A stretch of 24,000 bases of DNA from Kordiimonas lipolytica (GCF_042651265.1 NZ_JBHSCR010000003.1:529838-553837); one strand, 5' to 3'; positions 10,271 through 24,000 are shown, counted from the first letter of the stretch. The notes: a model not told the origin generated them from the letters alone. Made by a program: numbers and translations.

Positions 10271-10804
10271 TCAGGAAGAAAAGGGGTGGAACATGATGCC
10301 ATACAGGATCATGTCTACCGTATCGCCGTCCTTGGAAAGCGGCAGTGCCAGCACGGAATAATGGTGGAAGTTTTTGGGTGCCCATTTGGCCTGGATGTTG
10401 GTGGCATAATAGGGCTGCAGGTTATGGGTGAGCGTGACGGCCCGCTTGATCACGTCGTCTGAATTGGGGAATTGGCTCCAGGTTTTGCCCGTCAGGTCCA
10501 CGCCGCTGTCTTCGGCGATCTGGGTGCCGCACAGGCGGAACGTGAACTCAGGGCTGTGGCCTTTGGTGTCAACATCCACCAACGCGATATGAGGCAGCAG
10601 GCGGGTCAGCTCAAGGGGGCTGAAGTCCCCGCGGCAGGGAAGTTTCCCCAGGCTTGATTTCTTATCTATCCAGAACTGGTAAAGGGCCGCCAGCTCCGAC
10701 TGGCGGATTATGGCCTCGGCGTTATCCTCATAAAGAACGCCAGCGCTCGGCGCACCTGCGGAGCCGCCGGACACAAGGTCCCTCAAAATTGAAATGCCAG
10801 CCAT
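10271..10804 (-). CDS. PAS_5 (DUF1457-type) PAS-fold protein common in Alphaproteobacteria
   Basis: ...LYQFWIDKKSSLGKLPCRGDFSPLELTRLLPHIALVDV...FTFRLCGTQIAEDSGVDLTGKTW... matches the pattern I associate with the alphaproteobacterial PAS_5 family (LP.R.D..P..L..LLP...L.DV...F..RL.GT). Assignment is from memory of the family. Confidence 0.6.
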   Translation of the reverse strand: MAGISILRDLVSGGSAGAPSAGVLYEDNAEAIIRQSELAALYQFWIDKKSSLGKLPCRGDFSPLELTRLLPHIALVDVDTKGHSPEFTFRLCGTQIAEDSGVDLTGKTWSQFPNSDDVIKRAVTLTHNLQPYYATNIQAKWAPKNFHHYSVLALPLSKDGDTVDMILYGIMFHPFSS

Positions 10805-11038: not shown

Positions 11039-11992
11039 TTATTGCGCCTGCTGCTGAGGCGGTGCCGCCTGTGCCGGGGCCTGTGCCTGGGCCTGCGCTT
11101 GCTGTTCCTGCGCCGGGCCGTTCTGGCTGGCGGTATAAGTGGACAGGAGCACCTTCAGTTGTCGGTCAACCTCCTGGGCAATCATGGTTCGGATGGTTTC
11201 GGCAAACTCCTGCGCCAGAATCTGATTGGTGGATAACTGCTGCCCCGGCATACTCGGTTGGCCCGGCATGCCAGGTTGGCCCGGCATGCCTTGCTGGCCC
11301 TGTGGGGCTGCGCCATACGCCATCTGTCCCTGCTGGTTCATGGGGTAGTTTCCTTTCTGCTGTTCGTAGGCGGCCTTGGTGGCGGCCATTTCCTGGGTGG
11401 CCGCGTCGCGGCGCTCTTTCACACCGTGGGCGATGGTGGCCCGTTGAAGCTCGAATGCCCGCCGGATTGAATTCTGCTGCGTGTCCGACGCCGCGATGAC
11501 ATCCATGGCCTGATTGACCACGTTGGTCTGGGCTGATGTATCCGGTGTGACGGAAGGTGGTTCCACATGCGGCACCTGATGTTGTGGTGGTGCGGCTGTC
11601 ATGCTTGGGTCCGGGATGGGCGCAGCCTGCGGGGGCATATGCGGGGGCGTTTGGGGTGCTGCCTGCGGAGCCGCGGCTTGCGGAGCAGCCTGAGGCGCTG
11701 GTTGTTCAGGCACCGCATTCACTGTTGGCTGCGGGGCGGCCTGCGTTTGCGGGGGCGCCACTGTCTGGGTTCCCGGCTGCGCGCCCTGCTGGGGCGCTGA
11801 AGCAGGTGCTGTCTGCGCGGGTGATGCCCCGGTTGCTGTGGTTGTTGTGGTTGCTGTGGTTGCTTCCGCCACCTCCGCTGCTGCTTCTGGTGCAGCTTCC
11901 GGTGCTGCCGTGTCTGGCGCGCTCTTTTTCCTGGCCGCGCCCTTGCCGGACGCGGATGTTTTGGCTGTTTTCTTGCTGGTTGCTTTGGTCAT
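11039..11992 (-). CDS. Hypothetical low-complexity protein: Lys-rich N-terminal head, A/P/Q/T-rich region, central helical segment, MPGQPG repeats, Q/A-rich tail
   Basis: GGAGG RBS 6 nt upstream of ATG 11992. It is co-oriented with, and 39 nt downstream of, the 12032..12724 gene. The non-repetitive core (...NVVNQAMDVIAASDTQQNSIRRAFELQRATIAHGVKERRDAATQEMAATKAAYEQQK... and ...ILAQEFAETIRTMIAQEVDRQLKVLLSTY...) argues that this strand is coding. I recognise no family. Confidence 0.6.
   Translation of the reverse strand: MTKATSKKTAKTSASGKGAARKKSAPDTAAPEAAPEAAAEVAEATTATTTTTATGASPAQTAPASAPQQGAQPGTQTVAPPQTQAAPQPTVNAVPEQPAPQAAPQAAAPQAAPQTPPHMPPQAAPIPDPSMTAAPPQHQVPHVEPPSVTPDTSAQTNVVNQAMDVIAASDTQQNSIRRAFELQRATIAHGVKERRDAATQEMAATKAAYEQQKGNYPMNQQGQMAYGAAPQGQQGMPGQPGMPGQPSMPGQQLSTNQILAQEFAETIRTMIAQEVDRQLKVLLSTYTASQNGPAQEQQAQAQAQAPAQAAPPQQQAQ
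11256..11291 (-). repeat. 18-bp in-frame tandem repeat x2 (GGTTGGCCCGGCATGCCA / GGTTGGCCCGGCATGCCT) with a degenerate third unit upstream
   Basis: Read directly from the sequence. It encodes the (M)PGQPGMPGQPSMPGQ repeats of the 11039..11992 protein. Confidence 0.7.
11831..11866 (-). repeat. 9-bp in-frame tandem repeat x4 (GGTTGCTGT GGTTGTTGT GGTTGCTGT GGTTGCTTC on + strand) encoding a Thr/Ala run
   Basis: Read directly from the sequence. It lies inside the 11039..11992 CDS and encodes the ATTATTTTTAT segment. Confidence 0.7.
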
Positions 11993-12031
11993 GATTGCCT
12001 CCGCTTGCGCCCCATGGCCCGGGGCGCAGAG

Positions 12032-12724
12032 TTAGCTTTTCTTCTTCGGGGCCGCTTTGCTGGCTCTGGCCTTTTTGCCTGCCCCCTCCTTTGAGCTTGT
12101 GCCCGTGGATGACCGGGGCGAAAGCTCTGCCGTTCGGACAGAGGCTGTGGCGGTCTCTTCGGCTTCTTTCAGGACTTCTTCTTCCTCTTTGCGGACCTCT
12201 TTTTCTTCTTCCCGGACGGCTTCTTCTTCCGCTTTCACTGCTCCTTCCGCTTGCGCAGCGGCGCGGGCTTCCTGTTCTTCAAGAGCACGGGAATAGAGCT
12301 CAACGTCTTCTTCATAGCGACGGACATTTTCTTCAAAGCGGCGCACATTTTCCTGTTCGCGGGTGGCTTCCTCGGCCACGGCTTCGGCAGCTCTGTCGCT
12401 CTCGCAGTCTGCGTGGTCGGCCCGCATCAAGCTGGCCTGATAGGCAAGGGTTTCTTCCTGAAGGCGCTCTGCTTCGGCCTGGACAGCCAGATACGACAAA
12501 TTCTGACGTTCCACATAGCAGCTATAATTCAGGACTTGCTCTTCCTCCGCACGTGCTTGCGCCTCAACCGCTTCGGCATCCCGGTAATAGCCCGGATCGT
12601 CCCAATAGGAATTGCAGCCTGCACTTGAAGAGCCGTCATTGTTGGCATCGGTGTTGGAACTGCCCGAGGAAGTGACGACGACTGTCAGGTCTTCCTCAAT
12701 TTCAACTGTCTCGCGTTCATTCAT
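12032..12724 (-). CDS. Hypothetical highly acidic coiled-coil protein with Lys-rich C-terminal tail
   Basis: AGGAAG RBS upstream of ATG 12724. 230 aa with long E/A/R-rich heptad-like stretches (...REQENVRRFEENVRRYEEDVELYSRALEEQEARAAAQAEGAVKAEEEAVREEEKEVRKEEEEVLKEAEE...), four Cys in the N-terminal half, and the tail ...GAGKKARASKAAPKKKS. It is preceded by a TCAC-N16-CGTC motif. I recognise no family. Confidence 0.6.
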   Translation of the reverse strand: MNERETVEIEEDLTVVVTSSGSSNTDANNDGSSSAGCNSYWDDPGYYRDAEAVEAQARAEEEQVLNYSCYVERQNLSYLAVQAEAERLQEETLAYQASLMRADHADCESDRAAEAVAEEATREQENVRRFEENVRRYEEDVELYSRALEEQEARAAAQAEGAVKAEEEAVREEEKEVRKEEEEVLKEAEETATASVRTAELSPRSSTGTSSKEGAGKKARASKAAPKKKS

Positions 12725-12849
12725 GGCGTTGCTTCCTGATTGACGGCAAACGGGGGGATTGCCTGCGTAAATAGTCGCGACCAGTGACGGAAATAGCGGA
12801 GCCCCGTAGTTGACCCGCCATGAAACAAAGGCCGCTCTCCGATCGTCTG

Positions 12850-12873
12850 GACGGAAGAGCAGCCCCTCTGTGA
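12850..12873 (-). promoter_or_regulatory. ECF-like promoter motif copy P8: TCACAGAGGGGCTGCTCTTCCGTC (minus strand)
   Basis: Same TCAC-N16-CGTC geometry as the seven plus-strand copies. It lies in the 167-bp gap upstream of the 12032..12724 gene, about 125 nt before its ATG. Confidence 0.5.
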
Positions 12874-12891
12874 AAAAGAAATTTGGAAGAT

Positions 12892-13179
12892 CTAGCTGCC
12901 GCCGCTATCCGAACCGGTGTCGGATCCCGTGGGCGGTGTGTTGCTCTTGATGATCTCAATCGTCTTGTCGATCATGGTCTGCTGCAGCTTTTTCATGTCC
13001 ATGGTGACATCGGGCGGCACCACATTCTGCTTCAGCAGTTTCTGGATCTCGGCGTCCGCTGCCTCGACGAAATCGACAATGCTTTTCTGAATGGCGGCCT
13101 CGACTTCCGCGGTGCCCTTGAGGCCTTCATCGATCATTTTCGCGATATCCTCGGGGCTTGGGCTTTCGCTGTCTGCCAT
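12892..13179 (-). CDS. Hypothetical small acidic protein (95 aa)
   Basis: Strong AAGGAGG RBS upstream of ATG 13179. Helical acidic sequence with a Ser/Gly/Thr/Asp tail (...TPPTGSDTGSDSGGS). It is divergent from the reb array. I recognise no family. Confidence 0.6.
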   Translation of the reverse strand: MADSESPSPEDIAKMIDEGLKGTAEVEAAIQKSIVDFVEAADAEIQKLLKQNVVPPDVTMDMKKLQQTMIDKTIEIIKSNTPPTGSDTGSDSGGS

Positions 13180-13316
13180 GGTGGCCTCCTTTCGCTGGGT
13201 GATTTGACCTAAGACGCAGCGGCGGCGGAATTGGGAAGTGAAATCACGGTTTTTTGCCGAAAAGGGCTGAAAGACGTGCTATAAGTGTATTATCAATATC
13301 AATAGGAGAATATTCT

Positions 13317-13814
13317 ATGGTTGATAAAAAGTCTGCCAACCAAACCCCATCCGGGGAACCACAAGACCAGCCAGAAGACCATGTCGATGCCCTGTCACAG
13401 GAAATCGCCAAGCTTTTGTCCAGTCTTGTGGGTACAGTCAAGTCCGCCTCCGGTGACGGGGAGGGCAAAGCTGGCCAGGAAGCGCTCTATGTGGTTATAG
13501 AGCTCATTCAGGCGCTTTTGAATGACATCAAGGCGCATGAAAAACCAACGCTTGCTGACCGCATCCTTACAGTGATTGCGGAATGGAAGCTGGTTATGGC
13601 CGCGGGGAACACCCTCGATATGTCAACTGTCTACAGCCAGTCCGAGCACTTGATGAAGAAGCTCGATAGCGTGGCTGAAGGAGCAACCAAAGCGGGCATT
13701 GTTGATATCTATGCCTATGGTGGCACAGCTGCCGAAAACGCGATGGCGGTGCTGATGGAAACAGTCCATCTGAAGCCTAAACCCATCGTGGTTCCGAAAA
13801 CAGAAGCCCACTAA
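13317..13814 (+). CDS. Hypothetical protein (166 aa), first plus-strand gene of the reb region
   Basis: AGGAGA RBS upstream of ATG 13317; the track ORF starts earlier, at 13254. Acidic N-terminus followed by a helical body. A hairpin AAGGGGG-N20-CCCCCTT plus TTTC follows the stop (13829-13864). I recognise no family. Confidence 0.6.
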   Translation: MVDKKSANQTPSGEPQDQPEDHVDALSQEIAKLLSSLVGTVKSASGDGEGKAGQEALYVVIELIQALLNDIKAHEKPTLADRILTVIAEWKLVMAAGNTLDMSTVYSQSEHLMKKLDSVAEGATKAGIVDIYAYGGTAAENAMAVLMETVHLKPKPIVVPKTEAH

Positions 13815-13945: not shown

Positions 13946-13969
13946 TCACAAACCTGAGGTTGGGTCGTC
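13946..13969 (+). promoter_or_regulatory. ECF-like promoter motif copy P1: TCACAAACCTGAGGTTGGGTCGTC
   Basis: TCAC-N16-CGTC, 76 nt upstream of the ATG of rebB paralog 1. Confidence 0.55.
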
Positions 13970-14045
13970 GTATGCGGGAGACGTATTCGTGCCCCTGCCG
14001 GGGTGCCTGGTCTCACCCCAATTTAGTTTTTGAAGGAGAAAAGAC

Positions 14046-14375
14046 ATGGCAATGCCAACCGCGGTGAACAGCCAAATCACAGATTCAGTGTCACAGGCAA
14101 ATGTGGAAGTATTGGGCAGTTCGCCTGCGATGGGGATGGGGGCGATGTATCAATCGCTTGGCCATTCGACGGGAATCCTGTTTGAAAACAGTGTAGGCGC
14201 CCAACAGCAACTGGCGATCGCCGCTCAGTCTGCTGCCAACCAGGGTGTGATCCAGATCTACAGCGTTAATACCATGGCCGGTGCGACCGCCGCGGCCAAG
14301 ATCGCCAACAGCGACACGTCTGAGACCATGATGTCTCTGATGACAGCGCTCAAAGGTGTCGAAAGCGTCAGCTAA
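14046..14375 (+). CDS. rebB: RebB-family R-body protein, paralog 1 (109 aa)
   Basis: MAMPTAVNSQITDSVSQANVEVLGSSPAMGMGAMYQSLGHSTGILFENSVGAQQQLAIAAQSAANQGVIQIYS... carries the VNSQITD.VTQ.NVKVLG..PA.A.G..YQ signature of the RebB / 'killing trait' family (Caedibacter R-body subunits). AAGGAGA RBS. Confidence 0.85.
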   Translation: MAMPTAVNSQITDSVSQANVEVLGSSPAMGMGAMYQSLGHSTGILFENSVGAQQQLAIAAQSAANQGVIQIYSVNTMAGATAAAKIANSDTSETMMSLMTALKGVESVS

Positions 14376-14456
14376 CCTTCCCCCGCCTTGGCGGTAGGCG
14401 GGCTCCTTTTCTTATCTTGGAAGGTCATAGGCACTGGGTTTGAGACTTGAGAACCA

Positions 14457-14489
14457 CTGGCGGCGCATTGCGTCGCCAGTTTTCGTTTT
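14457..14489 (+). terminator. Intrinsic terminator after rebB paralog 1
   Basis: CTGGCGGCG-cattg-CGTCGCCAG (one mismatch) followed by TTTTCGTTTT. A weaker CCCGCC...GGCGGG hairpin plus a T-rich run lies at 14382-14412. Confidence 0.65.
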
Positions 14490-14541
14490 GGCCCGATGCG
14501 AACCGCTAATGCCCTCATTGAGAAAAAACAAACACGCCATG

Positions 14542-14565
14542 TCACAAAATTTTACGTGCGGCGTC
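14542..14565 (+). promoter_or_regulatory. ECF-like promoter motif copy P2: TCACAAAATTTTACGTGCGGCGTC
   Basis: TCAC-N16-CGTC, 78 nt upstream of ATG 14644. Confidence 0.55.
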
Positions 14566-14643
14566 TAAAGCCTGAAAGCGATGTCGGCAAGCGGATGGTA
14601 CGCTGCCAAGGCGCGTAACAAGGATCAGGTCAGGAGACAGGTC

Positions 14644-14970
14644 ATGGCGTATCCAACACTCGTAAACGATCAGATTACCGATGCAGTCACGCAGTCCAAT
14701 GTGAAAGTGCTGGGCGACGCGCCGGCAATGGCGATGGGCTCGATTTTCCAGTCGGCCGCGCACTCAACGGGCATCCTTTATGAAAATGCAGTAGGCAGCC
14801 AGCAGCAACTGGCAATCGCCGCGCAGGCCGCGACGAACCAGGGTGTTATCCAGATATATAGCGTCGACACGATGGCTGGTGCGGTGGGAACCTCGAAAAT
14901 CGCCAACAGCGACACTGCAGGCACCATGATGTCACTGGTAATGGCCCTGAAAGCCGGCCAGACGGCATAG
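14644..14970 (+). CDS. rebB: RebB-family R-body protein, paralog 2 (108 aa)
   Basis: MAYPTLVNDQITDAVTQSNVKVLGDAPAMAMGSIFQSAAHSTGILYENAVGSQQQLAIAAQAATNQGVIQIYSVDTMAG.... AGGAGA RBS upstream of ATG 14644; the track ORF starts at 14581. Confidence 0.85.
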   Translation: MAYPTLVNDQITDAVTQSNVKVLGDAPAMAMGSIFQSAAHSTGILYENAVGSQQQLAIAAQAATNQGVIQIYSVDTMAGAVGTSKIANSDTAGTMMSLVMALKAGQTA

Positions 14971-15173
14971 GGCTTCACGCTGCCATAAAAGCTGCCCACA
15001 GGGGGCGCCAACACTTTGCCTCGATACTCGGATGCGTCCCCCATCAAGCGCCATGCGCGGACCGAACCCAACCAGCCTTTCCCCCAGGCAGCAGTGGTTC
15101 CGTGCATGGCGCTTCCTCTTTTCCGGTCGCGTAAGGCGCACCTGATTTTTCCTGTTTTTTTTCGTTTCAAACC

Positions 15174-15197
15174 TCACAAACACGGCGGCTTTGCGTC
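15174..15197 (+). promoter_or_regulatory. ECF-like promoter motif copy P3: TCACAAACACGGCGGCTTTGCGTC
   Basis: TCAC-N16-CGTC, 82 nt upstream of ATG 15280. It is preceded by a long T-rich tract (15146-15168) that probably ends the previous transcript. Confidence 0.55.
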
Positions 15198-15279
15198 GTT
15201 ACCGCGAGTGCCGCGTGGCTGATATGAAAGCCAGATGCGCAAGCTCACTTGGTATATAGGCTCACAAGGAGAACTCGAT

Positions 15280-15606
15280 ATGGCTATGCCAACCCCCGTA
15301 AACGGTCAAATTACTGACGCTGTTACCCAGGCTAACGTCAAAGTGCTTGGTGATGCGCCAGCAATGGCGATGGGCTCGATCTTCCAGTCGCTGGCTCACT
15401 CCACCGGTATTCTTTATGAGAATGCTGTTGGGTCCCAGCAGCAACTGGCGATCGCATCGCAGGCTGCGACCAACCAGGGCGTGATCCAGATTTACAGCAT
15501 CGACACGATGGCTGGTGCGGTTGCGACCAACAAAATCGCCAACAGCGACACGGCAGACACGATGATGTCGCTGGTGATGGCACTGAAGGCCGGCCAGACT
15601 GCATAA
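15280..15606 (+). CDS. rebB: RebB-family R-body protein, paralog 3 (108 aa)
   Basis: MAMPTPVNGQITDAVTQANVKVLGDAPAMAMGSIFQSLAHSTGILYENAVGSQQQLAIASQAATNQGVIQIYSIDTMAG.... AGGAGA RBS upstream of ATG 15280; the track ORF starts at 15235. Confidence 0.85.
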   Translation: MAMPTPVNGQITDAVTQANVKVLGDAPAMAMGSIFQSLAHSTGILYENAVGSQQQLAIASQAATNQGVIQIYSIDTMAGAVATNKIANSDTADTMMSLVMALKAGQTA

Positions 15607-15621
15607 TCTGGTTGTGCCAAG

Positions 15622-15668
15622 AAAACTGGGGTTGCGCGGGCTTCGGCCGCTGCGCAGCCCCATTTTTA
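15622..15668 (+). terminator. Intrinsic terminator after rebB paralog 3
   Basis: GGGGTTGCGCGG-gcttcg-GCCGCTGCGCAGCCCC stem (with G-U and minor mismatch) followed by ATTTTTAT. Confidence 0.65.
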
Positions 15669-15716
15669 TGCGGATTTGATTTTCTTTATTTTTTGTCCCG
15701 AGATCGATTTTTTGGA

Positions 15717-15740
15717 TCACAAACCAGGCGCCATCGCGTC
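15717..15740 (+). promoter_or_regulatory. ECF-like promoter motif copy P4: TCACAAACCAGGCGCCATCGCGTC
   Basis: TCAC-N16-CGTC, 76 nt upstream of ATG 15817. Confidence 0.55.
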
Positions 15741-15816
15741 CATTAGGTAAGCAAGGCGGCGGCTTGCTGAACCGAATGAAGTCAGAAAAAAGAGAGCAAC
15801 TCGAAGGAGAGAAACT

Positions 15817-16146
15817 ATGGCTATGCCAACCCCCGTGAACGGCCAAATTACTGACGCAGTAACCCAAGCGAACGTCAAGGTGCTCGGTGATGCACCAGCC
15901 ATGGCGATGGGTTCCATCTTCCAGTCCCTGGCACACTCCACAGGCATCCTGTATGAAAACGCAGTTGGGTCCCAGCAGCAGCTGGCAGTAGCGGCCCAGG
16001 CATCCACCAACCAGGGTGTTATCCAGATTTACAGCATCGATACGATGGCTGGCGCTGTGGGCACTTCCAAGATCGCCAACAGCGACACGGCCAGCACAAT
16101 GATGTCTCTTGTGACAGCGCTGAAGGCTGGTCAGGGCGTTTCCTAA
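15817..16146 (+). CDS. rebB: RebB-family R-body protein, paralog 4 (109 aa)
   Basis: The first 57 residues are identical to paralog 3 (MAMPTPVNGQITDAVTQANVKVLGDAPAMAMGSIFQSLAHSTGILYENAVGSQQQLA...). AAGGAGAG RBS. Confidence 0.85.
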   Translation: MAMPTPVNGQITDAVTQANVKVLGDAPAMAMGSIFQSLAHSTGILYENAVGSQQQLAVAAQASTNQGVIQIYSIDTMAGAVGTSKIANSDTASTMMSLVTALKAGQGVS

Positions 16147-16322
16147 GCCCGGTGTGGCGCACGGGTCTTCGTGAAGTTGTCGCCCGCATGAGAAGAAACA
16201 ACCGGCTGGTGCGCCACCGGATATCAAAGTTCCGAGTTCCCCTGAGGCCCTGTCGAGCAATTGCCCGGCAGGGCTTTTTGCAGGGGTTGCCTGGCCTCGT
16301 CGGATTTTTTTCACTTTTCTGT

Positions 16323-16346
16323 TCACATCGGTGATCCGCCCGCGTC
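16323..16346 (+). promoter_or_regulatory. ECF-like promoter motif copy P5: TCACATCGGTGATCCGCCCGCGTC
   Basis: TCAC-N16-CGTC, 98 nt upstream of ATG 16445, at the head of the tightly spaced distal reb genes. Confidence 0.5.
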
Positions 16347-16444
16347 CAAACCCCAGAAGGATAAAAACTGTTTGGCGGCCTTCGGGTTTCCAGGTCAGTT
16401 CAGTGAGGTGCGTCACGAAAACCCCGTTTGGCAGGAGCGAAACA

Positions 16445-21221: not shown

Positions 21222-24000
21222 TCAATATTTGTTGAGGGCGCTGGTGTTCGCCAGTGCATATTCGCGCCCGAAAACGGATTTCTTGCAGGTGTTGCAAACC
21301 TTGGTGATTGGCGGTTTTACCGTCATGTCAAACATCAGGCAGTCCACCTTGGCGCGGACATTGTGGTTGTCCACCAGGTCAGCGAAGTTCGTGAAGCCGC
21401 ACATGCAGTGGGGCCCCTGGCCAATGCCCACAGCGATATTCTTCAGCGTGGTGAGATCGGTATCCAGGTAATAGGTTTTGTCTGACGTGCCCTGATACCA
21501 GTATTTGTTACCGGTTTGCGCAGCCGTGGGTAAATAGAGGGGAGTCAGCCCAAGGAAGTGGCCCACTTCATGGGCCGCGGTGGAATAGACTTCATCCCCT
21601 GCGGACGGTCCCAACTGTTCCGCATAGCGGCAGGCTGTCATGACGGCCGGTTCCTTGTTCACAGACAGGCCGCAGATGATCTGCAAGTCGATCAAAGTGA
21701 TCTTGACCCAGAGGTCTTTGATGTTTTCACCGTGCTTGTTCACATTCTGCAGGTCAATTTCCAGGTTATAGCTGCCGTCTGCATTGTCCGTCAGCTTCAC
21801 CTTGTTGTCGGGGATGTTTTCGGTCCAGCGGTGAATGAATCCCAGGGAATATTTCTGCAGCGTGGCGGAGCCGGGCACCATGAAGCGGCTGCTGGTTGAC
21901 GTGTCGAAGCGCCGTTTGCCAAGGCTTGCAACAAATTTGTTGCCGTTGACCACGGGCTTTGAAAACCATTGCTCGCGCTGAGTGGTGGCCCATGCCACAT
22001 GCTCGATGAACATCAGGTTGAAGGCCCGGTCTGTATAGTCCGGCAGCGATCCATCGAGGATACGGGCGTCGATCCAGTCAGAATACTGCGGGGTACGGGG
22101 GCTTTTGCTGGTGTAAAGCGCTGGCACATTGTCCACTTCCGTTACATCGGGGCTGGTTGCCAGTTCCAGGAAGCTTTCGGCAAAGGTGTTCTGAAGCTTG
22201 CCGCGATTGAACAGGTCTGAATAGTTGTCTTGATACGACAGGACATCGTGGCGCTTCATGGCAGCCACACTATAGTTGATCTTGCGCCACGCCGTGACAG
22301 GTTTGGTCTTGTAGCTTACAGGGGCCTTGGTGGCGTCAGCCCCAAAGGTTGCGGCGCCGGTTGCCGCGTCGTCCGTAAGGAAAGAAACCCCGGTGAACTT
22401 GAGGCCACCATACCGGCCGATCTTCAGCCGGGTTGATGCCTTGCCGCTGCTGTTGGTTGAGGCGGGCAGGTGGGTATCGAGCTTCATGGATTTGGTTGCC
22501 GCGGGTATATCGCTGGCGTTGCCGGGGTCGGCCCACAGCATGAAATCGATTCCAATTCCTTTGACGGCCGGTTCAGTGGTGGCTGTGACCAGCATGTTCT
22601 GACCGGTTTTGGCCTCGTCCTGGTTGGTGTTGGCCGTTTGGCTGAAGTCTATCGGCTGGTTGGTATATTGACGCCAATTGTCGATATTGGGGGTGAGGCT
22701 GGCAATCTTGACCACTGTTGCAGCTGCCCAGTCCCCGTTTCTAGCCGGCTTGATGCTGTCAGGCGCGCCCTGGAAGGCGGCGTCATCCTTGTCCTTGCGG
22801 TCCATGCCAAGCGACAGGTGAATGTCGCGGGCCTGTGTGCTTGGGTCTGATCCGTCAGATTGCAGCCAATAGGTTTTGTCCGACCCCAGGTCAGACTTTT
22901 TCAGCGTCAGCGGCTGGCCTTTTTTGCTGACAATCCTGCCGTTGGTTGCAGCGTCCCAAACCGACGCCTTGTCGCTTGAGACATCCAGCGAAATGACATG
23001 CTCCCCGGCGTCACCAGGCCAGGTGTCTGTCGCCACCTTGCTGACGACCAGTTTTGCCCGGCCAAACAGCGTGCTGTCCTGCAGGGGCAGGAAACGCCCG
23101 GTCTGCCATTTGGCTCTGTCGGTCATTGCCACAGCCTTGATCGGCGATTGGGTGCCGTCGTCACGGAAGACCTGTAGCGTCAGGGCTATCACGCCCAACT
23201 GCTTGGTTACCGGGTCTTTGACGACGAAAGGTGGCTTTGTTCCCAGGTCGCTAGGGGGCTTTGCCAGCGACAGGGTCAGGCTGGTCTTGCCCGTTTTTGC
23301 GCCGGAAAGGTAGTAGGTCTTGTCTTTTTTCAACAGGTCGGCGTTCGGGATGGTTGCCTTGTTGCCGACAAATTGTATCTCGTCTGTGCAGTCCTTGTCG
23401 CGGAAGATACGGATGCCCGCATTGTCGCGTGCCAGCGTGCCGTCGCCTTGATAGCCGATCTGCGTGTCTGACTGGGTGCAATAGAAATGCGCCAGGGTCG
23501 GGCTGGTGGCGTTTTTCTTGTCGCCGTCGTCGAAGCCGCGGGATTGCAGAACCAGATCATAGTCTGTTTCAATCACCGGGGTTACGGTGTTGGTTTTCTC
23601 AACCACAAGGGGTGGTTCGCCCACCTCATTGATAGTCGCCAACTGGCTGGAAGGGTTGGTGACGATATAAGGGTCACTCGCCTCTGCGGGGGTGAGCTTC
23701 AGCGATACCGTGTCCTCTGGCACCGTGTCGCCAAGCCATTGAACCGTATATTCATTTTTGGTGTTGGTGATGGCCTCGTTTGAAAGAGTCACGGACAGGT
23801 TATTGCCGGAAAAGAGCGGCCGTTTGTCACTTTTGTAGACGCCCAGAAGTTTGTCTGAGCGGGTTAGGGTCGCGGTGCCCGTGAAATTGCCGCCGCCGCT
23901 GGTTTTCTGGGTAATATAGGCGCGCACCGGCGTGCCGTCGCCTGCCTGGCTTTCCGGCAGAATGCGGATCGCGGTGGATTGCCAGTCCACGTGCGAGACC
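21222..24000 (-). CDS. Large (>920 aa) multi-domain protein with C-terminal HEXXH zinc-metalloprotease-like domain and Cys-rich tail; N-terminus off-window
   Basis: ...DEVYSTAAHEVGHFLGLTPLY... is an HExxHxxG motif. The tail ...GPHCMCGF...VDCLMF...KVCNTCKK has 6 Cys. The N-terminal ~600 aa look like repeated beta-rich modules (recurring ...KDKTYYLSGAKTGKTSLTLSL... / ...SDKTYWLQSDGSD...IHLSLG...). The track 'start' at 23990 is a GTG, and the frame stays open to the window edge (codons at 23991-23999 read V-S-H), so the gene is probably 5'-truncated by the window. Confidence 0.7.
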   Translation of the reverse strand, partial: VSHVDWQSTAIRILPESQAGDGTPVRAYITQKTSGGGNFTGTATLTRSDKLLGVYKSDKRPLFSGNNLSVTLSNEAITNTKNEYTVQWLGDTVPEDTVSLKLTPAEASDPYIVTNPSSQLATINEVGEPPLVVEKTNTVTPVIETDYDLVLQSRGFDDGDKKNATSPTLAHFYCTQSDTQIGYQGDGTLARDNAGIRIFRDKDCTDEIQFVGNKATIPNADLLKKDKTYYLSGAKTGKTSLTLSLAKPPSDLGTKPPFVVKDPVTKQLGVIALTLQVFRDDGTQSPIKAVAMTDRAKWQTGRFLPLQDSTLFGRAKLVVSKVATDTWPGDAGEHVISLDVSSDKASVWDAATNGRIVSKKGQPLTLKKSDLGSDKTYWLQSDGSDPSTQARDIHLSLGMDRKDKDDAAFQGAPDSIKPARNGDWAAATVVKIASLTPNIDNWRQYTNQPIDFSQTANTNQDEAKTGQNMLVTATTEPAVKGIGIDFMLWADPGNASDIPAATKSMKLDTHLPASTNSSGKASTRLKIGRYGGLKFTGVSFLTDDAATGAATFGADATKAPVSYKTKPVTAWRKINYSVAAMKRHDVLSYQDNYSDLFNRGKLQNTFAESFLELATSPDVTEVDNVPALYTSKSPRTPQYSDWIDARILDGSLPDYTDRAFNLMFIEHVAWATTQREQWFSKPVVNGNKFVASLGKRRFDTSTSSRFMVPGSATLQKYSLGFIHRWTENIPDNKVKLTDNADGSYNLEIDLQNVNKHGENIKDLWVKITLIDLQIICGLSVNKEPAVMTACRYAEQLGPSAGDEVYSTAAHEVGHFLGLTPLYLPTAAQTGNKYWYQGTSDKTYYLDTDLTTLKNIAVGIGQGPHCMCGFTNFADLVDNHNVRAKVDCLMFDMTVKPPITKVCNTCKKSVFGREYALANTSALNKY

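What the first reader, a model, noticed from the sequence alone, without database searches (positions are those of the whole stretch)
11039..13814. Divergent block of four unrecognisable low-complexity proteins linked to the reb array by the shared promoter motif
Immediately upstream of the reb genes lie a 166-aa plus-strand ORF and, on the opposite strand, three others. These are a 95-aa acidic protein, a 230-aa extremely acidic coiled-coil protein with four Cys, and a 317-aa P/Q/A/T-rich protein with MPGQPG repeats. All have good RBSs, and I recognise no family for any of them. The 230-aa gene carries motif copy P8, so it is predicted to be co-expressed with the R-body subunits. In Caedibacter, non-RebB factors (RebC) are needed for subunit modification and assembly. 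These proteins are therefore candidates for novel R-body assembly, scaffolding, capping or pH-trigger factors, or for cargo.
Basis: inference. Interest (0 to 1): 0.7.

Follow-up and report, generated by a model that had tools for sequence, protein, structure and literature searches.

The report
Accessory gene block beside R-body genes
Four unannotated genes next to the R-body (reb) gene array of Kordiimonas lipolytica are real, conserved with reb loci and carry the same dedicated sigma-factor promoter, so they are probably R-body helper or control proteins, of a kind partly noticed before but never named or tested.

Summary
The window is Kordiimonas lipolytica. All four ORFs are real genes (dN/dS 0.11-0.15 against a close relative) but evolve far faster than Reb subunits.

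The shared motif TCAC-N16-CGTC occurs 8 times (0.72 expected). It sits upstream of reb genes, of the ECF sigma gene and of the 230-aa gene. That copy is conserved in five genomes, and a variant precedes the 95-aa gene in six.

The four genes differ in spread:
- The 317-aa protein belongs to a family with two long helices and a disordered linker, found once per locus in 51 of 76 reb loci.
- The 95-aa family (25 of 76) usually overlaps the start of that gene.
- The 230-aa and 165-aa families are confined to Kordiimonas-like lineages.

None matches Pfam, NCBIfam, PHROGs or PDB sequences. None is RapA: the known R-body-associated protein corresponds to a different gene, at 18223-18654.

Membership of the reb/ECF regulon is well supported. 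The specific role (assembly or scaffold versus sigma control) is inferred only. Conserved hypothetical proteins in reb synteny were already reported in 2013, so novelty is moderate.

The parts
11039..11992 (-). o317: 317-aa protein. It has a basic K/A/S/T N-terminal tail, a ~120-aa P/Q/A/T-rich disordered region, a conserved long helix (about residues 152-215), a G/Q/P/M linker (MPGQPG x2), a conserved second helix (about residues 255-290) and a Q/A tail.
   Evidence: ORF. Composition. Family alignments. The A4 profile hits one ORF per locus in 51 of 76 reb loci. AlphaFold of the core gives two helices with pLDDT about 70-90 and a disordered linker below 50. dN/dS is 0.15. No Pfam, NCBIfam, PHROGs or PDB match.
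12005..12029 (-). GC-rich hairpin in the 39-nt gap between o230 and o317. No U-tract follows it on the coding strand, so o230 and o317 are probably co-transcribed.
   Evidence: Inverted repeat listed and seen in the sequence. No promoter motif lies in the gap. Co-transcription is an inference.
12032..12724 (-). o230: 230-aa acidic protein (pI 4.5) with heptad-like repeats (ENVRRFE/ENVRRYE/EDVELYS, EEEVLKE...), 3 non-conserved Cys and a basic C-terminal tail (GKKARASKAAPKKKS).
   Evidence: 21-nt DNA repeats. Homologues in L082, L080, L002, L005, L003, L006, L012 and L017, with the N-terminus MNE(R), the repeats and the basic tail conserved. pN 0.28 against pS 0.75 versus L082.
12850..12873 (-). 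ECF-type promoter copy ('P8'): TCACAG-N14-CGTC, preceded by a T-rich tract, 126 nt upstream of the o230 start codon.
   Evidence: Exact motif hit. The boxes keep their position in L082 and L080 (exact) and in L002 and L005 (CGTT), while the spacer diverges.
12892..13179 (-). o95: 95-aa acidic helical protein with the conserved core ...VVPPDVTMDMKKLQQTMIDKTIEII...
   Evidence: Homologues at 79%, 49% and about 40% identity in L082, L080, L002, L005 and L003. The A7 profile finds it in 25 of 76 reb loci, usually overlapping the start of the o317-family gene. dN/dS is 0.13.
13212..13236 (-). Variant promoter TCCCAA-N14-CGTCT, about 33 nt upstream of the o95 start codon.
   Evidence: One-mismatch hit to the motif. 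TTC..AA and CGTC(T) keep a fixed spacing upstream of the o95 orthologue in six genomes. The pattern TCNNAA-N14-CGTCT has 2 hits against 0.11 expected.
13317..13814 (+). o165: 165-aa predicted all-helical protein with the conserved C-terminal half ...DM.TV(Y/F).Q.E....G(I/V)VDIYAYGG.AAENA(M/I)AVLME. It is transcribed divergently from o95 and lies immediately upstream of the first reb promoter. It has no ECF motif of its own.
   Evidence: An exhaustive search of 1.84 billion representatives found only 4 hits. The 44%-identical homologue sits in the same block beside RebB genes. Kordiimonas 103-aa ORFs at the same position align at 22-23%. dN/dS is 0.11. Not detectably Reb-like.
13946..18914 (+). 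Context that defines the regulon: seven motif copies on the + strand. Six lie within the reb array (first at 13946-13969) and one (18891-18914) lies upstream of the sigma gene. The span also holds nine RebB genes (14046-18162) and the RapA-like gene at 18223-18654.
18966..20072 (+). ECF-type sigma factor (368 aa, with a long N-terminal extension), presumed to recognise the shared motif.
   Evidence: Sigma70_r2 and Sigma70_r4_2 domains. TIGR02937. An ECF group neighbouring RebB genes (ECF237) is described in PMC7826278.

Best explanation
The block is an accessory module of the R-body (reb) locus of Kordiimonas lipolytica.

Two transcription units, o95 alone and o230-o317 together, are read from promoters of the same type as the reb genes and the locus's own ECF sigma factor gene. 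Their products are therefore made together with the Reb subunits when that sigma factor is active.

The conserved core is the pair o95 plus o317. In many genomes the two genes overlap, which suggests the proteins are made in fixed proportion and work as a complex.

o317 offers two long amphipathic helices joined and flanked by disordered low-complexity segments. o230 is a lineage-specific acidic repeat protein with a basic tail, inserted between the pair.

I infer that these non-Reb helical proteins act on R-body biogenesis. They could bind Reb subunits or the growing ribbon as a scaffold, chaperone or coat, rather than forming the polymer itself.

o165 is a narrowly distributed protein at the head of the reb array with a different promoter. 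Its role is the least clear.

Shown here: the genes are real, they are inherited together with reb loci, and the promoter motif is conserved. Inferred: co-expression, complex formation, and any role in assembly.
For: Promoters:
- TCAC-N16-CGTC is 11-fold enriched.
- It lies upstream of reb and sigma genes in most of the alphaproteobacterial reb loci scanned and in some betaproteobacterial ones; the Lysobacter/Xanthomonas-type loci lack it.
- The o230 copy is conserved in 5 genomes and the o95 variant in 6.
- In other taxa a motif copy also precedes the first gene of the equivalent module (L021, L049).

Inheritance with reb:
- The four-gene block is syntenic beside reb in L082, L083, L080, L002 and L005; L003 keeps the three minus-strand genes, with a Reb-like ORF at the o165 position.
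- The o317 family occurs in 51 of 76 reb loci, always as one copy.
- The o95 family occurs in 25 of 76, typically overlapping the o317-family gene by 4 nt.
- Homologues retrieved without reference to reb (P0036, P0103, P0058, P0056) all lie beside RebB arrays.

Real genes under purifying selection.

Structure of o317: two confident long helices and a disordered linker.

Precedents for non-Reb locus proteins acting on R-bodies:
- RapA co-purifies and co-localises with R-bodies (PMC8322103).
- AZC_3784 is essential for R-body formation (PMC5527310).
- Hypothetical proteins confined to reb-bearing taxa were reported earlier (PMC3583457).
Against: - No expression, interaction or localisation data exist for any of the four.
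- Sigma-plus-reb loci L004 and L007 have none of these genes nearby.
- The first 6 kb of the Caedibacter plasmid, which holds its reb genes, has no match. Wang et al. report only rcgA, fecI2 and rapA as conserved reb-cluster genes in pseudomonads. The proteins are therefore not generally required for R-body formation.
- The proteins evolve 10-50 times faster than Reb subunits (57-87% against 99% identity over the same distance). This fits regulators or adaptors as well as it fits structural partners.
- In most alphaproteobacterial loci the o95/o317 pair lies directly upstream of the sigma gene, which fits a regulatory role equally well.
- o165 lacks the motif.
Confidence: 0.45

Rival explanations
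1. The o95/o317 pair is the missing regulator of the reb-linked ECF sigma factor. It would act as an anti-sigma factor, alone or with a partner: the two long helices of o317 would clamp the sigma domains, as the short two-helix anti-sigma factor NepR does. Being in the sigma regulon, it would give negative feedback on a costly and possibly lethal structure. Under this reading the block controls when R-bodies are made, not how they are built.
For: - In the alphaproteobacterial loci where both genes are present, the order is usually (o95)-o317-sigma on one strand.
- The ECF group next to RebB genes (ECF237) has no assigned anti-sigma factor (PMC7826278).
- The two-helix-plus-flexible-linker architecture and the fast sequence evolution are both compatible with anti-sigma factors.
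- The genes are dispensable in principle for polymer formation, since loci without them exist.
Against: - In the window the pair is about 7 kb from the sigma gene and on the other strand.
- In beta- and gammaproteobacteria the counterpart sits between the RapA-like and reb genes, not beside the sigma gene.
- The sigma gene has its own promoter copy, so it is not co-transcribed with the pair.
- L004 and L007 keep the sigma gene without these genes.
- There is no similarity to any anti-sigma domain in Pfam or NCBIfam.
- The long P/Q/A-rich and basic tails are unusual for anti-sigma factors. This last point rests on general knowledge and was not tested.
Confidence: 0.25
2. The proteins are cargo or effectors (toxins or adhesive factors) delivered when the R-body extends. 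Alternatively they are unrelated lineage-specific genes that merely sit beside the reb array.
For: - R-body killing needs unidentified partners besides the Reb proteins (PMC3583457).
- o230 and o165 are restricted to a few lineages, as effectors and strain-specific genes often are.
- The gene preceding the o317-family gene varies widely: a 513-638-aa protein in Thalassospira, and unrelated acidic proteins elsewhere.
Against: - No enzymatic or toxin domain, signal peptide or transmembrane segment is evident (sequences).
- o317 and o95 are too widely and too regularly co-inherited with reb loci to be bystanders.
- The conserved sigma-type promoters argue against chance adjacency.
Confidence: 0.12
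3. o165 (and the 103-aa ORF at the same position in Kordiimonas MAGs) is a highly diverged Reb-family subunit, so the array has an extra, unrecognised structural gene at its head.
For: - It lies immediately upstream of the first reb gene.
- In L003 the ORF at that position is a detectable Reb relative (E 5.6e-6).
- The one segment aligned by profile comparison matches the Reb core (VYSQSEHLMKKLDSVAEGATKAGIVDIYAY against LFENSVGAQQQLAIAAQSAANQGVIQIYSV).
- The predicted secondary structure is all-helical.
Against: - Profile-profile probability is only 2.6% (E 0.018).
- Pfam RebB and a locus-wide Reb HMM give no hit.
- The structure model is too poor to compare (pLDDT 43).
- o165 lacks the reb-type promoter.
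Confidence: 0.15

Closest known systems
HP2.1 / HP2.2 of the 'Group 2' reb synteny pattern (Raymann et al. 2013, PMC3583457)
   Same: These are hypothetical proteins without known domains, found only in Reb-bearing taxa, next to reb genes and often next to a sigma factor (HP2.3) and a Crp-type regulator (HP2.4).

In loci with that layout (Luteimonas L087, Ruegeria L079) the two about-200-aa genes are a RapA-like protein and a protein of the A8 family. The A8 family is the beta/gamma counterpart of o317.
   Different: - The paper gives no sequences that I could compare, so the equation A8 = HP2.x rests on size and position only.
- The link between the alphaproteobacterial o317 family (A4) and A8 is weak (hhalign E 0.004, probability 8%; one cross-hit at 1e-4).
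- o95, o230 and o165 are not described in that paper.
RapA (PA14_27680), R-body-associated protein A of Pseudomonas aeruginosa (Wang et al. 2021, PMC8322103)
   Same: It is encoded in a reb cluster governed by an ECF-type sigma factor (FecI2), is not a standard Reb protein, and is physically associated with R-bodies.
   Different: None of the four is homologous to RapA (best BLASTP E 0.85). The RapA homologue in this window is a different gene, 18223-18654 (E 7e-8), at the end of the reb array.
RebC of Caedibacter taeniospiralis
   Same: A small non-Reb protein of the reb operon, implicated in modification or assembly or in regulation (as cited).
   Different: RebC has no homologues outside Caedibacter (PMC3583457). 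No ORF in the first 6 kb of plasmid pKAP298 matches the o95, o230 or o317 profiles.
AZC_3784 / AZC_3785 / AZC_3787 of the Azorhizobium caulinodans reb operon (Matsuoka et al. 2017, PMC5527310)
   Same: Non-Reb genes embedded in a reb operon. AZC_3784 is essential for R-body formation. This shows that such accessory genes can matter.
   Different: That operon is controlled by PraR and the Crp-type activator RebR; the paper never mentions a sigma factor. I could not obtain the sequences, so homology to any of the four is untested.
Granule-associated amphipathic-helix proteins with basic tails (phasins such as PhaF/PhaM); analogy only, from my own knowledge
   Same: Long amphipathic helices combined with a lysine/alanine/proline-rich basic tail, associated with an intracellular inclusion. 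UniRef labels the K. lipolytica RapA-like protein and one A8-type protein 'Phasin domain-containing'.
   Different: No significant Pfam Phasin match for any of the four. The best is E 0.033, for a RapA-like protein of another locus. This is a resemblance of architecture, not of sequence.

Membership tests
RebB / 'Killing trait' (Pfam PF11747) | Match to the RebB profile (about 68-aa conserved helical core, motif ...VN.QITD.VTQ.N...NQGVIQIYS) | tested here: not met
   o317, o230, o95 and o165 give no PF11747 hit even at E<=1, while four Reb ORFs scanned in the same call do. hhalign of o165 alone, and of its family, against the Reb alignment gives probability 0.2% and 2.6%. A locus-wide Reb HMM gives no hit.
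RapA (PA14_27680) family | Sequence homology to P. aeruginosa RapA (motif DTSALN.Q(V/I)VQAV..(S/T)NS...) | tested here: not met
   BLASTP of RapA against the four: best E 0.85 (o95) and 5.0 (o317). The neighbouring gene at 18223-18654 matches at 1.5e-6 / 7e-8.
RapA (PA14_27680) family | Physical association with R-bodies (SDS-insoluble fraction, co-localisation with a Reb protein) | not testable with these tools
   Needs proteomics or microscopy in Kordiimonas or a heterologous host.
Reb-synteny hypothetical proteins (Raymann 2013, Group 2 HP2.1/HP2.2) | Found next to reb genes and only in Reb-bearing taxa | tested here: met
   The o317 family (A4) occurs in 51 of 76 reb loci and o95 in 25 of 76. 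The two homologues first found through the protein database, independently of reb, lie beside RebB arrays. The homologues of o165 do too. 'Only' was not tested exhaustively: the database searches are word-limited.
Reb-synteny hypothetical proteins (Raymann 2013, Group 2 HP2.1/HP2.2) | Sequence homology to the published HP2.1/HP2.2 proteins (about 205-220 aa) | tested here: inconclusive
By position and size, the A8 family (Ruegeria 207 aa, Luteimonas 195 aa) fits. Its link to o317 is weak (hhalign E 0.004; L076 1e-4).
Regulon of the reb-linked ECF sigma factor (ECF237-type) | Promoter of the type found upstream of the reb and sigma genes (TCAC-N16-CGTC), in the right orientation and distance | tested here: met
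   o230: exact copy 126 nt upstream, conserved in 5 genomes. o95: one-mismatch variant conserved in 6 genomes. o317: presumably co-transcribed with o230 (39-nt gap; inference). o165: no copy, so not met for that gene.
Regulon of the reb-linked ECF sigma factor (ECF237-type) | Sigma-dependent transcription demonstrated | not testable with these tools
   Needs RNA-seq, reporter fusions or in vitro transcription.
ECF anti-sigma factors | Anti-sigma domain (for example zinc-binding or RskA-type) or a NepR-like motif recognisable by profile | tested here: not met
   No anti-sigma family in Pfam or NCBIfam for any of the four, nor for 25 o317-family and 24 o95-family members.
ECF anti-sigma factors | Gene adjacent to, and co-transcribed with, the cognate sigma factor gene | tested here: inconclusive
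   The o317-family gene is adjacent and co-oriented with the sigma gene in most alphaproteobacterial loci, but with a separate sigma promoter between them. In this window it is about 7 kb away on the opposite strand.

The most novel reading that the evidence does not exclude
The overlapping pair (small acidic protein plus two-helix protein, here o95 and o317) may be an undescribed, widespread two-component module of ECF-controlled reb loci. It would couple R-body production to its own sigma factor.

One version: a soluble anti-sigma/partner pair of a new type, which would explain the stochastic on/off expression of R-bodies. Another version: a coat, with basic tails, that holds the acidic ribbon in its coiled state.

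Either way it would define two new protein families, with no Pfam entry, covering alpha-, beta- and gammaproteobacteria.
Probability: 0.2. Interest if true: 0.65.

Novelty: new variant of a known kind. Interest (0 to 1): 0.45.

Why it matters
R-bodies are pH-triggered protein ribbons that extend to many times their coiled length. They are implicated in killing of eukaryotic hosts by Caedibacter, Pseudomonas aeruginosa and Azorhizobium, and they are of interest as engineered actuators.

What besides the Reb subunits is needed to build, restrain or regulate them is largely unknown: RebC is unique to Caedibacter, and RapA is the only other partner with experimental support.

This analysis gives concrete, testable candidates. 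The conserved o95/o317 gene pair is present in most reb loci that carry the ECF sigma factor. It comes with alignments, a conserved promoter and defined helices. The analysis also separates that pair from lineage-specific additions (o230, o165).

It assigns the window's 143-aa gene to the RapA family, extending RapA from pseudomonads to alphaproteobacteria.

The gain is incremental rather than surprising, because reb-linked hypothetical proteins were already known to exist.

Tried and rejected
1. A database search with the whole 230-aa protein found nothing, not even itself. The exact sequence is not in that collection, and low-complexity words probably swamped the candidate list. The result is uninformative rather than negative.

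2. Equating the o317 family with RapA: rejected once the RapA sequence was recovered from the supplement of PMC8322103. RapA matches o143 instead. PA14_27675, the other reb-cluster protein found in R-body preparations, starts MAYFKLEEPVRFHRYPFDFHSHFAG (only that N-terminal stretch was shown) and looks unrelated, judging by eye.

3. o165 as a Reb relative: profile comparison was not significant.

4. AlphaFold of o165 with 4 sequences gave pLDDT 43, which is unusable. No fold search was run on either model, because the o317 model is just two isolated helices (pTM 0.30).

5. PDB sequence searches found only a biased hit to ribosomal protein L34a and weak coiled-coil hits.

6. A search of plasmids with o317 found no match.

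7. The Rfam scan of the block gave only a sub-threshold isrG hit inside the o317 coding sequence (25 bits against a cut-off of 100). I dismissed it.

8. A structured RNA in the conserved 126-nt leader of o230: it folds no better than shuffles (z +0.73) and shows almost no covariation.

9. Extending the o230 family to the acidic 'EREA-repeat' proteins of L021, L024, L049, L067 and Nisaea: the HMM finds none of them even at E<=1. They are positional analogues at most. The Thalassospira 513-638-aa protein at that position is unrelated in composition.

10. My first iterated o317 profile merged the alpha and beta/gamma groups (64 loci). A non-iterated test shows that this link is weak, so I report the two groups separately.

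11. My iterated profile of the 143-aa protein absorbed all Reb proteins. I read this as distant Reb relatedness of the RapA family, not as a family count.

Full report
**What is there.** The window comes from Kordiimonas lipolytica (assembly GCA_001550065.1, contig LRUB01000036.1). The four ORFs of the finding are present:
- o317 at 11039-11992 (-)
- o230 at 12032-12724 (-)
- o95 at 12892-13179 (-)
- a plus-strand ORF ending at 13814

The conserved start of the plus-strand ORF is the ATG at 13317, giving 165 aa. The compositions are as described: o317 is 60% A+Q+P+T with two MPGQP units, o230 has pI 4.5, and o95 has pI 4.2. The 230-aa protein has three cysteines, not four, and they are not conserved.

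Downstream lie nine RebB-family genes, a 143-aa gene, and a 368-aa ECF-type sigma factor. None of the four matches Pfam, NCBIfam or PHROGs. PDB sequence searches with o230 and with the o317- and o95-family profiles gave nothing usable. RefSeq calls o95, o165 and the 143-aa protein 'hypothetical protein'; the exact o317 and o230 sequences are not in the collection searched.

**Are they genes?** Yes. A marine-sediment metagenome contig (L082) carries the same locus at moderate distance.
- Differences fall mainly on third codon positions.
- dN/dS is 0.15 (o317), 0.13 (o95) and 0.11 (o165).
- o230 has pN 0.28 against a saturated pS of 0.75.

This also settles which strand codes in the low-complexity stretch, where long ORFs exist in several frames. 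The proteins evolve fast. Over the distance at which Reb1 stays 99% identical, o165 is 87%, o95 79%, o317 71% and o230 57% identical.

**The promoter motif.** TCAC-N16-CGTC occurs 8 times in the window against 0.72 expected, and no shuffle reaches 8.
- Six copies lie within the reb array, most of them directly upstream of a reb gene.
- One precedes the sigma gene, which suggests autoregulation. I take the motif to be the promoter read by the locus's own ECF sigma factor. An ECF group, ECF237, is known to neighbour RebB genes (PMC7826278).
- The eighth copy is at 12850-12873 on the minus strand, 126 nt upstream of o230, with the same T-rich upstream tract.

The same motif precedes reb and sigma genes in most of the alphaproteobacterial reb loci scanned and in some betaproteobacterial ones; the Lysobacter/Xanthomonas-type loci lack it.

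The o230 copy is conserved in place in L082 and L080 (exact boxes, diverged spacer). In two Kordiimonas MAGs it appears as TCAC-N16-CGTT.

Its TTC..AA and CGTC(T) boxes keep their spacing in six genomes.

o230 and o317 are 39 nt apart, with a hairpin but no U-tract or promoter between them, so they are probably one transcript (inference). o165 has no copy of the motif. Its upstream region keeps a TGCTAT(AAG) element that could be an extended -10 of a housekeeping promoter. That reading is by eye and was not tested.

**Co-occurrence with reb loci.** I fetched 76 reb loci from one-per-species genomes, using the window's Reb paralogues as query. I then searched their ORFs with profiles.

*The whole block.* It is syntenic in this arrangement: PAS_5 gene, o317, o230 and o95 on one strand, then o165 and the reb genes on the other.
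- It recurs in L082/L083 (o165 86% identical) and in L080 (44%).
- Without the PAS gene, it recurs in Kordiimonas MAGs L002 and L005. L003 keeps the three minus-strand genes, but the ORF at the o165 position there is a Reb relative.

*o317.* It belongs to a family defined by two conserved helices...HLYDAV..QR..V...F..QR.A...AV..QR.AAM and ...V...IV..LR..IA.EV..QL, separated by a variable low-complexity linker.
- A non-iterated profile of 25 alphaproteobacterial members finds exactly one ORF per locus in 51 of the 76 loci.
- AlphaFold with 30 database homologues predicts two long helices (pLDDT about 70-90) and a disordered linker, with no fixed tertiary packing (pTM 0.30).

*The beta/gamma counterpart.* A second, internally well-conserved group (alignment A8) occupies the equivalent place in 15 beta- and gammaproteobacterial loci and in Ruegeria pomeroyi.
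- Its relation to the alphaproteobacterial group is only weakly supported (hhalign E 0.004, probability 8%).
- In both groups the gene is preceded by a small acidic ORF that overlaps it.

*o95.* Its family is robust in about nine loci. By profile it extends to 25 of 76, nearly always immediately upstream of the o317-family gene and often overlapping it by 4 nt.

*o230.* It has detectable homologues in only six of the 76 loci, plus the metagenomic relatives. Other taxa have unrelated proteins at that position.

*o165.* It is rarer still. An exhaustive HMMER pass over 1.84 billion representatives gave three credible hits and one repeat-driven spurious hit. Two Kordiimonas 103-aa ORFs at the same position align at 22-23%.

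*The converse test.* Proteins found by database search with the family profiles, all 'hypothetical' and without Pfam domains, lie beside RebB arrays and an ECF sigma gene in both new places examined. A third turned out to be a locus I already held.

*Exceptions.* Two sigma-plus-reb loci flanked by housekeeping genes (L004, L007) have none of these genes. The first 6 kb of the Caedibacter plasmid, which holds its reb genes, has no match.

**Relation to what is known.** Raymann et al. (2013) reported two reb synteny groups defined by hypothetical proteins found only in Reb-bearing taxa. Group 2 has two about-205-220-aa proteins (HP2.1, HP2.2), a sigma factor and a Crp-type regulator. Loci with exactly that layout (Luteimonas L087, Ruegeria L079) contain a RapA-like protein and an A8-type protein. 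The o317-type gene is therefore most likely one of those HP2 proteins, but I could not compare sequences.

RapA of P. aeruginosa co-purifies and co-localises with R-bodies. I recovered its sequence from the paper's supplement.
- It matches the window's 143-aa gene at 18223-18654 (BLASTP 7e-8, shared DTSALN..(I/V)VQAV..(S/T)NS).
- It matches none of the four.
- The 143-aa protein also aligns to a Reb profile. This agrees with a 2026 survey that places RapA among 'secondary' Reb groups.

RebC has no homologues outside Caedibacter. In Azorhizobium a non-Reb gene of the operon, AZC_3784, is essential for R-body formation. Its relation to the present genes is untested.

**How it most likely works.**

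Well supported: the block belongs to the reb system. This rests on co-inheritance, on conserved promoters of the reb/sigma type for o95 and o230(-o317), and on purifying selection.

Inferred:
- The products are made together with the Reb subunits.
- The overlapping o95/o317 pair forms a complex.
- These amphipathic-helix proteins, with disordered and basic tails, act on R-body biogenesis as a scaffold, chaperone or coat.

The main rival is regulation. In alphaproteobacterial loci where both genes are present, the order is usually (o95)-o317-sigma, this sigma group has no known anti-sigma factor, and a two-helix protein could clamp a sigma factor. Against the rival:
- The pair is far from the sigma gene here, and it is not adjacent to it in beta- and gammaproteobacteria.
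- The sigma gene has its own promoter.
- No anti-sigma domain is detectable.

The existence of reb loci without these genes means they are accessory under either reading. I give about 0.85 to 'part of the reb/ECF regulon'. I give about 0.45 to the assembly or partner role, 0.25 to sigma control, and the remainder to cargo, bystander or other roles. o165 as a cryptic Reb protein is not supported.

**Verdict.** The finding is a real, conserved and unnamed accessory module. Its core (o95 plus o317) is widespread, while its other two genes are lineage-specific. Similar reb-linked hypothetical proteins were already on record, and no function is demonstrated, so novelty and interest are moderate.

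Noticed in passing
window 18223-18654 (+): The 143-aa gene at the end of the reb array has no Pfam hit. It is a homologue of P. aeruginosa RapA (PA14_27680), the experimentally R-body-associated protein (BLASTP 7e-8), and it aligns to a Reb profile. RapA-like genes occupy this last position in many alphaproteobacterial reb loci, and they are strongly conserved in beta/gamma loci and in Ruegeria.
   Followed up: yes
L059 7754-8194, L061 7758-8198 (also L057, L062, L068, L070): Beta-proteobacterial reb loci carry a 146-aa phage-type lysozyme (PF00959, E 3e-47) between the RapA-like gene and the A8-type gene. This suggests programmed lysis to release R-bodies. No such gene is present in the window.
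   Followed up: partly
window 20249-21181 (-) and 21222-23990 (-, runs off the window; 1352 aa in the genome): Two large ORFs next to the sigma gene on the opposite strand have no Pfam or NCBIfam match. They are conserved at the same place in the relative L082/L083. Whether they belong to the R-body system (for example as cargo) is unknown. No promoter motif copy was seen within the window.
   Followed up: partly
window 12725-12849 (-): The 126-nt leader between the promoter copy and the o230 start codon is about 90% identical to that of L082, although the o230 protein is only 57% identical. It does not fold better than shuffled sequence (z +0.73) and shows almost no covariation.
   Followed up: partly
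window 11915-11992 (-, o317 N-terminus) and 12032-12080 (-, o230 C-terminus): Both proteins carry short lysine/alanine/serine/threonine-rich basic tails. For o230 the feature, but not the sequence, is kept in the homologues of L002, L005, L003, L080 and L082. The tails resemble the histone-like tails of some granule-associated proteins. That resemblance is from my own knowledge and was not tested.
   Followed up: no
window 10271-10804 (-): A PAS_5 / MopJ-like gene lies directly downstream of o317. It keeps that position in L080 and L082 but not in the Kordiimonas MAG L002, so it is probably a neighbour rather than part of the module.
   Followed up: partly
window 18966-19550 (+): The ECF sigma factor has an N-terminal extension of about 195 aa, rich in P, E, G and D, ahead of region 2. 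The extension is absent from the 183-aa sigma factor of the Luteimonas reb locus (L087). It may be a built-in regulatory element.
   Followed up: no
L034 6102-7769 and other Thalassospira loci: In Thalassospira a 513-638-aa acidic, S/T-rich protein without Pfam domains abuts or overlaps the o317-family gene (gap 0 to -3 nt). It has a promoter motif copy near its start. This is another lineage-specific member of the accessory operon.
   Followed up: partly
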